Below, in pieces: positions 1 through 4,033 of a DNA stretch of 4,033 nt. The notes beneath the pieces are model-generated. The model was not told where the DNA came from. It made no database searches and was given only the letters and a program-made list of their open reading frames with translations. The stretch is from IMG/VR virus record IMGVR_UViG_3300014614_000008, positions 1 to 4,033 of that record. One strand, written 5' to 3'. This DNA comes from a virus (lineage: Duplodnaviria > Heunggongvirae > Uroviricota > Caudoviricetes). Every line of letters begins with the position of its first letter. Positions within the stretch are counted from its first letter, which is position 1. A program made the translations under genes and the position numbers.

Positions 1-407
1 GCCAGGTACGCAGCATCAGACGTTCCAGCATCGGACGGGTAAACTGCCCGGTGACTTCCGGACTGACAGACCATTCACTCCATCGGGTGCGTATCTCCGC
101 TGCCAGATCACGGGCAATGGCCCCATTGCGTAATACCGGATGTGGCTCGACAATAATCCCGTTTTTTCCCACCACCCGTTCTTCCAGCTTGTCAAATACA
201 CCAATAACCAGATCGTGGTTGTTATCAAGGTAACGGGCCTGCTCACGTAACGACACGGCCCCGTACTGGCTTAACTGGTCGGCAGTTCGGTTTTCCCGCC
301 GGGCTTTGTTTTACGGCCTCATAAGCCTGGATCACCGCACGGGAACGCAGCCTTGCCGCTTTCCATCCTGGTGAAAAAACGCCAATCACATCATCAAGAA
401 TTGCCAT
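1..407 (-). CDS. Phage portal protein, N-terminal part (lambdoid prophage portal family); 3' end lies beyond the window; reading frame breaks near 304..316 so it may be a pseudogene or carry a sequencing error
   Basis: ATG at 407..405 overlaps the W stop (minus strand TGATG at 409..405). That frame reads MAILDDVIGVFSPGWKAARLRSRAVIQAYEAVK then hits a stop at 245..243. A second frame, offset by one base, is open from about 310 to position 1 and reads NKARRENRTADQLSQYGAVSLREQARYLDNNHDLVIGVFDKLEERVVGKNGIIVEPHPVLRNGAIARDLAAEIRTRWSEWSVSPEVTGQFTRPMLERLMLRTW (my own translation; this frame is not in the supplied ORF track because it has no stop inside the window). Both pieces resemble lambdoid prophage portal N-termini as I recall them, and the position after terL-W matches lambda Nu1-A-W-B order. 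Confidence 0.7.
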
Positions 408-619
408 CAGAACCTCGCCAGCCGGTACCCGGGATGCCCCCGTCGTCGTGTAATCAGAGCCGCAAGGCGGCGCTCCCACTCCTGCCGTCCCTGCCGGATC
501 TCAGATAAGTTTTCCATGGTCATCTGCTGACCATTAAAGGTGACGGATTTTCCGTCCAGCACCGCCATTTCAGCTTCCGTATAACGCTGAATCATGGCTT
601 CGATATCATTCTGGTTCAT
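407..619 (-). CDS. Head-tail joining / head completion protein, lambda gpW family
   Basis: 70-aa product MNQNDIEAMIQRYTEAEMAVLDGKSVTFNGQQMTMENLSEIRQGRQEWERRLAALITRRRGHPGYRLARF. The C-terminal TRRRGHPGY motif parallels lambda gpW TQRRRGPAGF, and the size (lambda gpW is 68 aa) and position between terL and portal fit. The start at 619 forms ATGA with the terL stop (618..616) and has a GGAGGA Shine-Dalgarno 5 nt upstream; the ORF-track start at 625 (MVM...) sits too close to that SD. Confidence 0.75.
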   Translation of the reverse strand: MNQNDIEAMIQRYTEAEMAVLDGKSVTFNGQQMTMENLSEIRQGRQEWERRLAALITRRRGHPGYRLARF

Positions 620-2717
620 AACCATCCTCCGGAAGTCAGCCAGGGGTTAACATCGTCAGTTACTGTTTTCTTCCGTTTTTGTTTTTTAACAGGCGTGGAT
701 ACCGGTTCCGGTGAGGGTGACGGTTCGGTACTGTCCGGGACACACTCCAGCCAGGTTTCCCGGCTCGCCCACTCCGGTGCATCCGGCCAGCGGATCTTTT
801 CGTATCCATGCAGAATGACCAGAGCCTCGGCATACACCATTAGGTCAAAAGCTTCGTTGGCACCGCGACCCGGCTTACTCCATTTCCCGTCACTACTCCG
901 CTCTTCATACGTCAGTTCGTCGTAAAACCAGCTCCCCAGCCAGTCAGGGAAATGCACATAGCCGGGACCTGGCGAGTCACGCCATAACGCGTTATTCACC
1001 CGGTCTTTCAGGGCATCCGTCTGAAGAAGCCAGAGCGGCACATCACCTGCGGCCTGCGCCCGTCGGCCCGTTCGTCCGGTGTTATCAGGGAATGTACGGG
1101 TGATCAGTTTTGCGCGCCGGATGCTGTCGCCCTTAAACAGGTAAATACGTTTACCAAGGCCATCACGACGGCAACGACGCCAGAATTTATAGGCATTATC
1201 AGTGACCCCGTCTTCACCGCCGGAGTCCACCGCCATTGCCATCAGTCGCATTTGTTGAGAAGGATCGGAGGCCAGCGGCCAGCTTTTATGAAAAACATCC
1301 GTCAGCAGGACATCCCAGTCTTCCGGATAGCTGGCCGGATCAATTCGCTGGCTCTCCCCGTCGCTGTCACCGCGCAATGACTGCGTGATGTTGTAACGAT
1401 CAATAATCCAGCGTTCGCCACGGCTGCCATAGCCCGTTACCTGAACCACAAAACGGCGATGACGTCCCGCCTGCACATCCACTGTCGCCACAAGGAAATT
1501 AACGCCATCCGGCACACTGCGGGAAGGAACTGGCTCTGCCCGCTGCTCAAGCAGTTCACTTTTTCGTTGCTCCATGCTGGCACGGGGAAGATAAGGTAAT
1601 CCCCAGTCGGTATTGATAACCGTCTTGAGTGTTTCTTCACTTCCGGTTGTCTCGTATTCCTGTTCTGCAGTAAGCAGTTTGTAAACGAGTTGCGAGAGTG
1701 TCTGGTAAGCAGCTGCCGGACCCTCCATCCAGAATGACGCAATACGTGAGCGTCGGGGATCACCATAACGACTGCCATCCGCATTGATGGATTCACCATC
1801 CCGCAACCAGACCCCACGTCCGTTCAGCTCACGTTTTTGTTCAGGCATAATCCGTCCTGAACAGGAAGGACACTGAATATAAGCCGCCTCACTTGCCAGC
1901 ACGGGATCGGCAATATCACGGAAACCAGCAACCACATCGCCGCAGGGCTGAAAATACTCACCACAGTGTGGACAGGGCCAGTACCAGCGACGGCGATCGC
2001 CACGGTTATAGAGCGACAGTATCCCCGTGGTTGGTGGAGCCTCATGCGGTGAAGTCCGTCGCCATTTCACATCCTTCACATCCCTGCCGGGGGAACTCTC
2101 CACCAGCGTCATACCACTGGACATAAATGTGGTGGTACGTTTTGAGGCAAGAGAGAAGGCATCCCCCTCGCCATCAATATCTTCCGGAAAACGGTCATAA
2201 TCCGTCAGCGCCACGCATTTATAATCTGATGAGGACATGATATTGACTGACGGCCAGCCGATTTTCAGGTAGTTGCCAGCAAGGAATGTTCTGTCATAAA
2301 CGTTGTTGTCATTTTTGTTCGGACTCAGGCGACTGACCACTTCCGGGCTGACGCGAAACGTTCTGGCAAGTCGTTTTTTGGAGTGTNNNNNNNNNNTTCC
2401 TCCGTCATCTGAATGATCAGCATATCCGCAGGATCGCAAATCACGTTGTAAATCACCCAGCCGTCAATCAGGCCGATAGTCTTGCCGGTTCGTGCCGGAC
2501 CAACAAATATCACTGCGTCGTATTCACGCGAGGCCAGGCAGTTCATCGGCTCAATAACATACGGTGCCACCAGCGGATCCCACGGGACTGAGTTCCCTGC
2601 CCCCATGGGCACCCGCATATACTGAGCAACGGCATCAGCAACCCGCATTCGTCTCGGTGCGCGAAGGATATAACCTGAATCGGTTCGTGCTGCCTTTGCG
2701 GTTTCCTGATTCAGCAT
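616..2717 (-). CDS. terL: Terminase large subunit, lambda gpA family; interrupted by a 10-N assembly gap at 2387..2396 with the frames on either side out of register
   Basis: N-terminal segment (2717 down to 2397) reads MLNQETAKAARTDSGY...YDAVIFVGPARTGKT...DMLIIQMTEE with a P-loop-like GPARTGKT. C-terminal segment (2386 down to 616) contains CPHCGEYF...CPSCSG (compare lambda gpA CPHCGEE), VATVDVQAGRHRRFVVQVTGYGSRGERWIIDRYNI (compare lambda TAGIDSQLDRYEMRVWGWGPGEESWLIDRQII), GKRIYLFKGDS and DLMVYAEAL, ending in a basic tail KKQKRKK. The ORF track splits it into 2325..2717 and 616..2439 because of the N-run. Stop at 618..616. Confidence 0.9.
2387..2396. other. Assembly gap (run of 10 N) inside terL
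   Basis: Ten consecutive N at 2387..2396. The terL frame upstream of the gap (codon starts congruent to 2 mod 3) and downstream (congruent to 0 mod 3) differ, so the N-run is a placeholder of unknown true length. Confidence 0.95.
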
Positions 2718-3211
2718 TACTCCTCCTGCTGTAATTCCTCCTCATCATCCGCACCTGCTTCAGTCACCCGCAGGGCTATCTGATCGCGCAGATCATCAAT
2801 AATGGACTGAACACGGCTCACAGCGGCAGGCTGCAGACCGCAGTCACGTTCAAGAATATCCGGTAATGTCTCCAGCACCTGCACGACCGCTTTTGCCCAG
2901 ATGGCAAACTCCCGTCTGACATCACTGGCCGGAATGAGTTGTGCCGTTTCCTGTTCGAACTTAAGACGCTCACGTTCAGACTGATACCAGGCTTTGCGCT
3001 CATGCGCGTCCATTTCGCCTTCTGCAACCGGCGGTGGTAATGCCAGAAATGCCGACACAATATCAACCACCCGATAAAGCTTGAGGTTGCTTTCATGCCC
3101 CCCTGCAACGGGTAGATTTTGCAGCCTTGCCGCAGCAGTCTGGCGATGTACACCTGACAGTGCCGCCAGTTGACTGATATTCAGCGTCAGATTTTTTAAC
3201 TCTCGATCCAT
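2717..3211 (-). CDS. terS: Terminase small subunit, lambda Nu1-like (DNA packaging protein Nu1 homolog)
   Basis: 164-aa product MDRELKNLTLNISQLAALSGVHRQTAAARLQNLP... with an N-terminal helix-turn-helix-like segment as in lambda Nu1 and an acidic C-terminus. GGAG Shine-Dalgarno at 3220..3217 lies 5 nt upstream of the ATG at 3211. Its TAA stop (2719..2717) overlaps the terL ATG (2717..2715) as TAATG. Sits immediately downstream of a cos-like site, as in lambda. Confidence 0.85.
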   Translation of the reverse strand: MDRELKNLTLNISQLAALSGVHRQTAAARLQNLPVAGGHESNLKLYRVVDIVSAFLALPPPVAEGEMDAHERKAWYQSERERLKFEQETAQLIPASDVRREFAIWAKAVVQVLETLPDILERDCGLQPAAVSRVQSIIDDLRDQIALRVTEAGADDEEELQQEE

Positions 3212-3263
3212 ACCCGCTCCAGAATGTTTTAAACATGCATCTTGCGAACAACTTTAGGCAAAA

Positions 3264-3350
3264 GGTGTTAGTGGTGAACAAAAAACAATCAAAATAGACA
3301 CCATAAAAATAAAATCACCGTAATATCAATACATTACAGTAGTGGTGATG
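3264..3350. promoter_or_regulatory. Candidate cosB-like terminase-binding region: repeats flanking an IHF consensus
   Basis: TAGTGGTGA occurs as a direct repeat at 3269..3277 and 3340..3348, with an inverted partial copy (ATCACCG) at 3314..3320. TATCAATACATTA at 3324..3336 matches the IHF consensus WATCAANNNNTTR exactly and lies between the cosN-proximal repeat and the inverted copy, mirroring the lambda R3-I1-R2-R1 layout. The region is AT-rich and has no plausible ORF. Confidence 0.45.
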
Positions 3351-3380
3351 ACGAATGAAATTTCAAAAACTAGCCTTTTT

Positions 3381-3403
3381 CCGCGACGCTCCCGCCCCGT
3401 GGC
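3381..3403 (-). other. Candidate cosN (cohesive-end nicking site) of a lambda-like phage
   Basis: Minus strand reads GCCACG GGGCGGGAGCGT CGCGG, against lambda ...TTACG GGGCGGCGACCT CGCGGG: 8 of 12 identities in the 12-nt cohesive-end segment (3386..3397) plus matching ACG and CGCGG flanks. It lies about 175 bp upstream of the terS start; lambda Nu1 starts at nt 191 from the left cohesive end. Confidence 0.5.
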
Positions 3404-3568
3404 AGGCCACCCCACCGGGAGGACCCGTCAGCCTGACAGCTCTGACGAACGACTGATACAACGCCTTGCATGAGTGGCATCGGGATAATCCAGAAAGGCA
3501 TAGCATCGTGCCCACAAGAATCTGTGTAAGTGTCCTGTTTCTTCCACCCCCGCACAGGACTGGCGAGC

Positions 3569-3745
3569 ATGAGGGACAAACCCGCGAACCATAAACGCGG
3601 TAAAAACCCGGTGTGCATCGTTTTTGATTATTCCCGCACACTCGCGCAGAAGGAGTTCCCCGTCGGGCTACGGTCTCTGTTAATACGGGAATACGGCGAC
3701 GATACAGCGCATGATGTGTCAGGCTTGAATACCTTTATCCTTTAA
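3569..3745 (+). CDS. Hypothetical small protein (58 aa from the ATG; the ORF track extends it to a GTG at 3530), unknown function; may be non-coding
   Basis: Open frame MRDKPANHKRGKNPVCIVFDYSRTLAQKEFPVGLRSLLIREYGDDTAHDVSGLNTFIL on the strand opposite the packaging genes, between cos and IS1. Only a weak possible SD (AGGA about 9 nt upstream of the ATG at 3569), no convincing promoter, and no family I recognise. Confidence 0.2.
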   Translation: MRDKPANHKRGKNPVCIVFDYSRTLAQKEFPVGLRSLLIREYGDDTAHDVSGLNTFIL

Positions 3746-3827
3746 AAGGGATATCAGTTAAGTTATCCCGTGTAGGGTATAAGCCATTATCAAAGCCACT
3801 CTGTAGGGAATGGCTTTTGTGATGGCA

Positions 3828-3899
3828 TCACTTACTCTTTACGCTGCTATCCCACTCATCCCGGAATTTTGATGGGTTATTGAAACCTTCTGCTGACAT
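3828..3899 (-). CDS. Hypothetical 23-aa micro-ORF with a canonical Shine-Dalgarno; unknown function
   Basis: Minus strand AAGGAG (3910..3905), 5-nt spacer, ATG at 3899..3897, then MSAEGFNNPSKFRDEWDSSVKSK and a TGA at 3830..3828. A 7-bp inverted repeat (AAAGCCA/TGGCTTT, 3792..3798 and 3811..3817) follows. No homolog recognised. Confidence 0.2.
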   Translation of the reverse strand: MSAEGFNNPSKFRDEWDSSVKSK

Positions 3900-3957
3900 A
3901 ACAACTCCTTCAATGTTTGGCTGAAATTAGGATGTCTTTCCATCAGTCCGCCACCAC

Positions 3958-4033
3958 GGTGATGCTGCCAACTTACTGATTTAGTGTATGATGGTGTTTT
4001 TGAGGTGCTCCAGTGGCTTCTGTTTCTATCAGC
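3958..4033 (+). mobile_element. IS1 insertion sequence, left end (first 76 bp); the element continues beyond the window
   Basis: 3958..4033 reads GGTGATGCTGCCAACTTACTGATTTAGTGTATGATGGTGTTTTTGAGGTGCTCCAGTGGCTTCTGTTTCTATCAGC, which matches the canonical IS1 left terminus as I remember it, including the 23-bp terminal inverted repeat at 3958..3980. Confidence 0.9.
4013..4033 (+). CDS. insA: IS1 InsA (transposition repressor / N-terminal part of the InsAB' transposase), first 7 codons only
   Basis: GTG GCT TCT GTT TCT ATC AGC translates to (M)ASVSIS, the known InsA N-terminus, at the expected distance from the IS1 end. Confidence 0.8.

What the first reader, a model, noticed from the sequence alone, without database searches (positions are those of the whole stretch)
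3941..4033. IS1 inserted about 560 bp from cos in the prophage right arm, possibly cutting a gene
The IS1 left end begins at 3958, with insA pointing away from the phage genes. On the minus strand a frame is open from inside the IS1 boundary through MERHPNFSQTLKELLCQQKVSITHQNSGMSGIAA (stop at 3841..3839), which may be the C-terminal remnant of a gene split by the insertion. Together with the portal frame break, this points to a defective prophage.
Basis: partly seen in the sequence, partly recalled or inferred. Interest (0 to 1): 0.4.

Follow-up and report, generated by a model that had tools for sequence, protein, structure and literature searches.

The report
IS1 end at prophage contig edge
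The window ends 76 bases into a copy of the very common mobile element IS1, which abuts the right end of a lambda-like prophage; this is an ordinary, already known kind of scar, and in every finished genome with the same junction the IS1 marks a 7-kb deletion, not an insertion into a gene.

Summary
Bases 3958-4033 are the left end of an IS1A-type IS1, with insA starting at 4013 and pointing away from the phage genes. It lies 560 bp from a lambda-like cosN motif.

- **Not a gene.** The minus-strand frame is 45 codons in IS1-free relatives. NCBI's annotation pipeline (PGAP) never annotates it. Across more than 100 related prophages it keeps 15 codons and then runs into unrelated tails.
- **Not a simple insertion where it can be checked.** The junction CGCCACCAC|GGTGATG occurs in exactly 3 of 5,426 complete E. 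coli genomes and in five draft contigs. It always sits in a decayed prophage at the argU (DLP12) site. There, the IS1 replaces 7,353 bp (lysis genes, Q, porin, repressor, N) and has no target-site duplication.
- **Part of a nested deletion series.** Six more genomes share the other IS1 end but have different left flanks.
- **No simple-insertion junction found.** The right junction a simple insertion would leave was found nowhere.

The window differs in carrying an mEp460-type packaging module left of a 201-bp shared segment. An IS1-free metagenome contig shows that this mosaic occurs naturally. What lies beyond the IS1 in the source genome cannot be known from this window. Ordinary; low interest.

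The parts
3958..4033 (+). First 76 bp of an IS1 (IS1A type). The 23-bp left inverted repeat is 3958-3980; the insA start codon GTG is at 4013, followed by 6 more codons. The window, and probably the contig, ends here.
   Evidence: 100% identical to annotated IS1A copies in L003, L005 and L006. The insA offset is taken from the L003 annotation.
3949..3957 (.). CGCCACCAC, the 9 bp next to the IS1 end. A simple insertion would repeat these 9 bp beyond the far end of the IS1.
   Evidence: Read directly from the sequence. In L003, L005 and L006 the far side reads AGGCTCCTG instead.
3839..3943 (-). 34-codon leftover of a 45-codon open frame (MAKKILCGGGL-MERHPNF...). Most likely not a gene.
   Evidence: No family and almost no predictions. 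The frame is not conserved across 120 relatives.
3920..3957 (.). Left edge of a conserved DNA block of about 150 bp shared by many lambdoid prophages. The IS1 junction cuts this block; the rest of it is missing from the window.
   Evidence: The exact 40-mer across the intact site is found in at least 120 IMG/VR contigs. Similarity to L001 runs from about -40 to about +100/+120 around the site. No Rfam match.
3607..3807 (.). 201-bp segment that is 100% identical in both prophage types: the mEp460/L004 type and the DLP12-locus type. It is the crossover or switch region of the mosaic.
   Evidence: Window 3212-3807 is 100% identical to L004, and 3607-3957 is 100% identical to L001, L002 and L003. 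The first L004 mismatch is at 3808.
3792..3817 (.). Hairpin AAAGCCA-(12 nt)-TGGCTTT, annotated as a terminator in phage Ayreon.
   Evidence: Ayreon carries a regulatory 'terminator' feature that maps to window 3781-3826. The tool's own terminator scan did not call it, because the loop is longer than 8 nt.
3386..3397 (-). cosN-like 12-mer (GGGCGGGAGCGT on the minus strand), upstream of the small terminase gene.
   Evidence: Aligned by eye with the lambda-type cos in L001. The mEp460_4F5 record is linearised at 3402|3403. This is an inference, not a tested cos site.
2717..3211 (-). Small terminase subunit (DUF1441 family) of the mEp460/Ayreon-type packaging module.
   Evidence: The exact protein is found in 43,474 blocks of the assembly collection and matches Pfam PF07278.

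Best explanation
Shown: the last 76 bases are the left end of an ordinary IS1. The window stops there because short-read assemblers break contigs at multi-copy IS1.

Shown: the junction with phage DNA is, base for base and in the same orientation, one already present in other E. coli. There an IS1 sits in a decayed prophage at the argU (DLP12) site. Its right end is anchored in a gene just downstream of N. Its left end has been brought next to this site by loss of 7,353 bp, covering the GIY-YIG gene, Rz, R, S, porin, Q, rusA, repressor and N.

Shown: that deletion is one of a nested series. All members share the right-end junction, as expected from IS1-promoted adjacent deletion or from recombination between two IS1 copies.

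Inferred: the window's junction is most likely that same scar, inherited. The DNA to its left was then exchanged by homologous recombination, through the 201-bp shared segment, for an mEp460-like cos/terminase/portal module. On this reading the IS1 marks a deletion boundary in a dead prophage, not a simple insertion into a gene.

Shown: the open frame it clips is not a conserved gene.
For: - IS1 identity and orientation.
- Spread of the junction: exactly 3 of 5,426 complete genomes carry it. All three have the same context, with no TSD (CGCCACCAC on one side, AGGCTCCTG on the other).
- Draft contigs: L017 (20 or more samples), L018, L028 and L029 hold the junction in the same DLP12-remnant context; L019 (303 bp) is too short to show any left-hand context.
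- Size of the deletion: the IS1-free prophage at the same locus (L030, strain HKUOPY1) holds both sites 7,353 bp apart.
- Nested series: nine genomes share the right-end junction. Their left flanks lie in ninX (L025), at this site (L003, L005, L006), next to an IS3 (L022), or at three points beyond cusS (L020/L023, L021, L024).
- No simple insertion: the predicted simple-insertion right junction is absent.
- The mosaic is natural: the IS1-free metagenome contig L032 joins the same cos/terminase type to the same right-end type.
- General mechanism for missing TSDs: PMC11708052.
Against: - The window ends inside IS1, so its far side was never seen.
- No other assembly combines this junction with the mEp460-type left flank. 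Inheritance plus a flank swap is therefore inferred only from the identical position and orientation.
- The 351 bp next to the junction carries no SNP that separates IS1-bearing relatives from IS1-free ones.
- A nested series can also arise from fresh insertions followed by IS1 x IS1 recombination. In that case this junction began as a true insertion.
Confidence: 0.55

Rival explanations
1. Simple IS1 transposition into this site in an L032-like prophage (mEp460-type packaging module with a GIY-YIG-type right end). A 9-bp CGCCACCAC duplication and an otherwise intact right arm would lie beyond the IS1. This could be an independent hit at the same nucleotide, or the ancestral insertion from which the deleted form later arose by IS1 x IS1 recombination.
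For: An IS1-free prophage with exactly this mosaic exists (L032), so a suitable target is available. The intact site is very common (at least 120 IMG/VR contigs; 126 complete genomes hold 3700-3957). IS1 is known from the literature to reuse insertion hot spots (my own knowledge, not tested here).
Against: No genome or viral contig shows the expected right junction: 0 of 5,426 complete genomes and 0 in IMG/VR. Every resolved copy of the junction is a deletion. An independent event at the same base and in the same orientation is unlikely a priori.
Confidence: 0.22
2. Assembly chimera. The source genome holds two prophages: an mEp460/L004-type one with its own Rz-side right end, and the DLP12-locus remnant that carries the IS1 scar. 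The assembler crossed from one to the other inside the 201-bp stretch where they are identical.
For: - The switch region is 100% identical between the two types.
- The window is a scaffold with a 10-N gap.
- No other assembly links this junction to this left flank.
- A 303-bp draft contig (L019) runs only from about 77 bp before the 3808 divergence point to the IS1. This shows that some strains with the scar also hold a second copy of the shared stretch that assemblers cannot resolve.
Against: The same left/right mosaic exists without IS1 in an independent metagenome contig, so no artefact is needed to explain it. A 201-bp repeat is within reach of 250-nt reads and read pairs. The sequence across 3607-3807 is continuous, with no N.
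Confidence: 0.18
3. The 45-codon frame is a real small late gene, and its loss of 11 N-terminal codons and of its promoter side is the functional consequence of the IS1.
For: The frame ends about 20 nt before a hairpin annotated as a terminator in phage Ayreon. A few gene callers have predicted it, for example in Salmonella phage vB_SemP_Emek.
Against: There is no Shine-Dalgarno motif before its ATG. PGAP does not annotate it in L001, L002 or L030. It has no PHROG hit. The predicted proteins have inconsistent starts and ends. In 120 relatives the frame diverges after codon 15 into unrelated tails of varying length (peptides of 18 to more than 45 aa).
Confidence: 0.04

Closest known systems
IS1 (IS1A/IS1B copies of E. 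coli and Shigella; IS1 family)
   Same: The 23-bp left inverted repeat, the spacing to the insA start and all 76 bases present are identical to annotated IS1A copies.
   Different: Nothing differs in the part present. Only 76 of 768 bp lie in the window, so the insAB' frameshift, the right end and the target duplication cannot be seen here.
IS1-promoted adjacent deletions and IS x IS recombination scars (classical gal-region deletions from the literature, my own knowledge; general account in PMC11708052)
   Same: One IS end is fixed and the other end abuts variable, progressively more distant DNA. No target-site duplication is present. This holds in nine genomes at the argU prophage.
   Different: For the window itself the far side is unseen, so membership in this series is inferred from the identical junction only.
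DLP12-type cryptic prophage at argU (essD, rrrD, quuD, nohD, intD)
   Same: Window 3607-3957 is 100% identical to the right-arm end of prophages at this locus (L001, L002, L030). All other copies of the IS1 junction lie there.
   Different: The window lacks the ylcI and DUF1398 (ybcV-like) genes and the lambda-type cos/Nu1. It carries an mEp460-type cos, a DUF1441 small terminase, a GpA-type large terminase and a portal gene instead.
Lambdoid phages mEp460 and Ayreon (right end, cos, terminase)
   Same: 98% identity over window 3237-3827. The packaging genes are of the same type.
   Different: In those phages the DNA beyond 3827 runs into a 50-aa ORF and Rz. The window instead switches to the DLP12-type right end and then to IS1.

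Membership tests
IS1 insertion sequence | Terminal inverted repeat of about 23 bp (GGTGATGCTGCCAACTTACTGAT at the left end) | tested here: met
   Window 3958-3980 matches exactly. It is identical to annotated IS1A copies.
IS1 insertion sequence | insA reading frame starting about 55 nt inside the left end and reading inward | tested here: met
   GTG at 4013 followed by ASVSIS, as in the annotated insA of L003. Only 7 codons lie in the window.
IS1 insertion sequence | Full element of 768 bp with insA, insB' and a programmed -1 frameshift, plus the right inverted repeat | not testable with these tools
   The window ends 76 bp into the element. The copy at the same junction in L003 is 768 bp and is annotated with a programmed frameshift.
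IS1 insertion sequence (simple transposition event) | Direct target-site duplication of 8-9 bp flanking the element | tested here: not met
   This cannot be tested in the window itself. In all three complete genomes with this junction the flanks are CGCCACCAC and AGGCTCCTG. The predicted duplicated junction is absent from 5,426 genomes and from IMG/VR.
IS-anchored nested deletion series | One IS end with a constant flank and the other end with variable flanks lying progressively further away on the same side | tested here: met
   This was tested in relatives only. Nine genomes share the right-end flank. Their left flanks lie in ninX, at this site, at an IS3, or at three points beyond cusS. 7,353 bp are missing relative to L030.
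Protein-coding gene (the 34/45-codon minus-strand frame) | Reading frame and product conserved among relatives that keep the DNA | tested here: not met
   In 120 IMG/VR contigs the frame keeps MAKKILCGGGLMERH and then diverges into unrelated tails; total peptide lengths run from 18 to more than 45 aa. No PHROG hit. Only 8 inconsistent predictions.
Lambda-like cos packaging module | Small terminase, GpA-type large terminase and a lambda-type portal, with a cos site upstream | tested here: met
   The small terminase matches Pfam PF07278. The adjacent genes in loci encoding the identical small terminase match PF05876/PF20454 and PF05136; separately, the window's own packaging region is about 99% identical to L004. 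The cosN motif is only inferred by similarity to lambda.

The most novel reading that the evidence does not exclude
The conserved block of about 150 bp at the right-arm end of many lambdoid prophages is a genuine IS1 hot spot. On this reading, the same nucleotide was hit independently in an mEp460-type prophage (this window) and in the DLP12-locus prophage.
Probability: 0.1. Interest if true: 0.2.

Novelty: already known. Interest (0 to 1): 0.08.

Why it matters
It matters little beyond annotation hygiene. IS1 ends at contig edges are routine in E. coli and Shigella drafts, and IS-driven decay of cryptic prophages is textbook.

Three practical lessons follow:
- An IS end next to phage DNA should not be read as a simple insertion without seeing the other end.
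- The short open frame here should not be annotated as a disrupted gene.
- The split large-terminase frame in this window comes from a scaffold gap, not from biology.

The nested IS1 deletion series at the argU prophage is a tidy natural example of stepwise prophage erosion, but it is not new in kind.

Tried and rejected
- **Looking for the source contig or any other copy of the junction.** The 48-nt junction was not found in genome contigs, metagenome contigs or viral contigs. Exact-protein look-ups of the 34-aa ORF and of the 71-aa plus-strand ORF found nothing. The 64-aa partial frame and two homologous partial proteins found only DLP12-remnant contigs.
- **Looking for a simple insertion.** I built a synthetic right junction (IS1 end + CGCCACCAC + downstream DNA). 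No record covered it. A gapped pattern in IMG/VR also found nothing.
- **Looking for a complete genome with the window's mosaic.** None of 5,426 has 3400-3957 contiguous. The GTDB representative genomes have none either. One metagenome contig does.
- **Testing for a known RNA or defined element at the site.** Rfam gave only sub-threshold chance hits. The consensus scan gave no terminator and only background-level promoter matches.
- **Testing the ORF as a gene.** Rejected; see the membership test.
- **Checking whether the three junction-bearing complete genomes also hold an mEp460-type prophage.** This would bear on the chimera rival. The search tool cannot be restricted to one record, so it was not resolved.

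Full report
**What is in the window.** All recognisable genes lie on the minus strand.
- Window 1-406: the first roughly 135 codons of a lambda-type portal gene.
- 407-625: a small gpW-like gene.
- 616-2717: a GpA-type large terminase, interrupted by ten Ns at 2387-2396.
- 2717-3211: a DUF1441 small terminase.

Upstream of the small terminase, at 3386-3397, the minus strand reads cacg|GGGCGGGAGCGT|cgcgg. This aligns with lambda's ttacg|GGGCGGCGACCT|cgcgg, as seen in the lambda-type relative L001. The phage record mEp460_4F5 is linearised 5 nt away. So 3398-3957 is the extreme right-arm end of a lambdoid prophage, read backwards.

**Checking the observation.**
- From 3958 the sequence is GGTGATGCTGCCAACTTACTGAT..., the IS1 left inverted repeat.
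- All 76 bases to the window end are identical to copies annotated as IS1A.
- insA starts at GTG 4013 and reads away from the phage genes.
- The minus-strand frame is open from 4033 to the stop at 3841-3839, and contains the quoted peptide.
- The IS1 end is 560 bp from the cosN-like motif.
- The window stops exactly 76 bp into IS1, as do three unrelated draft contigs with the same junction. This is what a k=77 assembly does at a repeat, so it is a contig end (inference).

**Is a gene cut?** IS1-free relatives show the intact site...CATCAGTCCGCCACCAC|AAAGAATCTTTTTTGCCAT... (L001, L002, L030, L032). There the frame is only 45 codons (MAKKILCGGGLMERHPNF...).
- It has no Shine-Dalgarno motif.
- PGAP does not annotate it in any genome examined.
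- It has no PHROG hit.
- A search of 5.8 billion proteins returned eight 'hypothetical' predictions with inconsistent starts and ends. Three of these are partial calls at contig ends; two of them (P0005, P0006) run into IS1.
- The decisive test used 120 IMG/VR contigs that keep the exact 40-mer across the site. In them the frame keeps its first 15 codons and then continues into unrelated tails, giving peptides of 18 to more than 45 residues.

The conserved unit is therefore a DNA block, running from about 40 bp left to 100-120 bp right of the site. It is not a protein. The block has no Rfam match and I do not know what it does.

**Is it a simple insertion?** The junction occurs in exactly three of 5,426 complete E. 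coli genomes (13P484A, EC190486, CH4784) and on no plasmid.
- In all three it lies in a heavily decayed prophage at the argU/fimZ (DLP12) site.
- Beyond the 768-bp IS1 comes AGGCTCCTGATAC..., followed by a truncated hypothetical gene, DUF2528, cIII, kil, gam, bet, exo, a partial integrase and tRNA-Arg.
- The flanks are CGCCACCAC and AGGCTCCTG, so there is no target-site duplication.
- Strain HKUOPY1 (L030) has an IS1-free prophage at the same locus that holds both sites in the same orientation, 7,353 bp apart. The missing interval carries the GIY-YIG gene, Rz, rrrD, essD, a porin, quuD, ylcG, rusA, an HTH protein, a LexA-like repressor, a hypothetical gene, N, and the 5' part of the gene after N.

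**The nested series.** Nine genomes share the right-end junction, but their left flanks differ:
- in ninX (L025, a smaller deletion);
- at our site (three genomes);
- next to an IS3 at the far prophage end (L022);
- at three different points beyond cusS (L020/L023, L021, L024).

One IS end is fixed and the other end reaches progressively further. This is the classical picture of IS-promoted adjacent deletion, or of repeated insertion followed by IS x IS recombination. Both leave no duplication (PMC11708052; the IS1 gal-region deletions are from my own knowledge of the literature). A synthetic query for the right junction that a simple insertion would leave was covered by no complete genome. 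A gapped pattern found none in IMG/VR.

**How the window differs.**
- Left of 3607 the three complete genomes, and four of the five draft contigs that hold the junction (L017, L018, L028, L029), run into DUF1398, ylcI, a lambda-type cos and a truncated Nu1. The fifth, L019, is only 303 bp and ends inside the shared segment.
- The window instead is 100% identical to the mEp460/Ayreon-type prophage of strain AR436 (L004) from 3212 to 3807.
- It is also 100% identical to the DLP12-type right end from 3607 to 3957.
- The two types therefore share 201 identical bases (3607-3807), ending in a hairpin that Ayreon annotates as a terminator.
- No complete E. coli genome has 3400-3957 contiguous.
- One metagenome contig (OOAK01012995.1, L032) carries the same mosaic without IS1. 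It is 97.8% identical to window 3006-3957 and runs on through the intact site into the GIY-YIG gene. The mosaic is therefore natural.

**Best reading and rivals.**
- *Inherited deletion scar (about 0.55).* An identical nucleotide position and orientation is most simply explained by inheritance of the known scar. The DNA to its left would then have been exchanged through the 201-bp homology. On this reading the IS1 is a deletion boundary.
- *Simple insertion (about 0.22).* A true insertion with a 9-bp duplication into an L032-like prophage. It would be either an independent hit or the ancestor of the deleted form.
- *Assembly chimera (about 0.18).* A crossover inside the 201-bp repeat in a genome that holds both prophages. 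The 10-N scaffold gap supports this. So does the 303-bp draft contig L019, which spans only from the divergence point to IS1 and shows that such two-copy genomes exist.

The window cannot decide between these, because it ends inside the IS1.

**Defective prophage?** Relative to all the closest complete genomes the window lacks 14 bp at 309/310 (GTGTCCGCGTCGTT). This shifts the portal frame after about 30 codons. If real, the prophage cannot make heads. By contrast, the split of the large terminase frame is an artefact: the ten Ns replace eleven real bases.

**Verdict.** This is a real but ordinary feature: an IS1 end at a contig edge next to a prophage right end. It is already known in kind, and the exact junction is already in public genomes. 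The 'gene split by insertion' reading is not supported.

Noticed in passing
window 309/310: A 14-bp deletion (GTGTCCGCGTCGTT) in the portal gene relative to L004. None of the 60 closest complete genomes shares it: all span 3,822 nt against the query's 3,807. It shifts the portal frame after about 30 codons. It could be real decay or an assembly error.
   Followed up: partly
window 2387-2396: The ten Ns replace eleven bases of an otherwise 100%-matching large terminase gene. The apparent split of that gene into two ORFs (616..2439 and 2325..2717) is therefore a scaffold-gap artefact, not a frameshift.
   Followed up: yes
window 3569-3745 (+), hairpin 3792-3817: A plus-strand frame of 58-71 codons (MRDKPANHKRGKNPVCIVFDYSRTLAQKEF...). 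Its C-terminal 45 residues lie in the 201-bp segment shared by both prophage types, and the hairpin plus TTTTGTG follows it. Some assemblies call it as a gene. It has no PHROG hit. It may be a real small gene.
   Followed up: no
L001 4220-4380 (window 3920-3957 is its left edge): A DNA block of about 150 bp kept nearly identical in at least 120 IMG/VR prophage contigs, although the flanks on both sides are mosaic and variable. No Rfam family matches and no conserved ORF is present. Its function is unknown.
   Followed up: partly
L020-L025, L003, L005, L006 (argU/fimZ locus of nine E. coli genomes): A natural nested series of IS1-anchored deletions. The common right-end junction lies in the gene after N. 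The deletions remove from a few kb of the prophage up to the whole prophage and beyond, past cusS.
   Followed up: yes
L032 386/387 (window 2930-3005): The IS1-free metagenome relative lacks 76 bp inside the small terminase gene, so that prophage copy is probably defective too.
   Followed up: no
window 3363-3641 (-): A 92-codon frame runs straight across the cosN-like motif. The homologous frame in phage Ayreon is annotated as 'putative late gene regulator'. A gene spanning cos would be intact only in circular or integrated DNA, so the annotation looks doubtful.
   Followed up: no
L019 (GCA_021343755.1, 303-bp contig = window 3731-4033): This draft contig begins 77 bp before the first base that distinguishes the two prophage types (3808) and ends 76 bp into IS1. 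That strain therefore holds the IS1 scar and also a second copy of the shared segment.
   Followed up: partly
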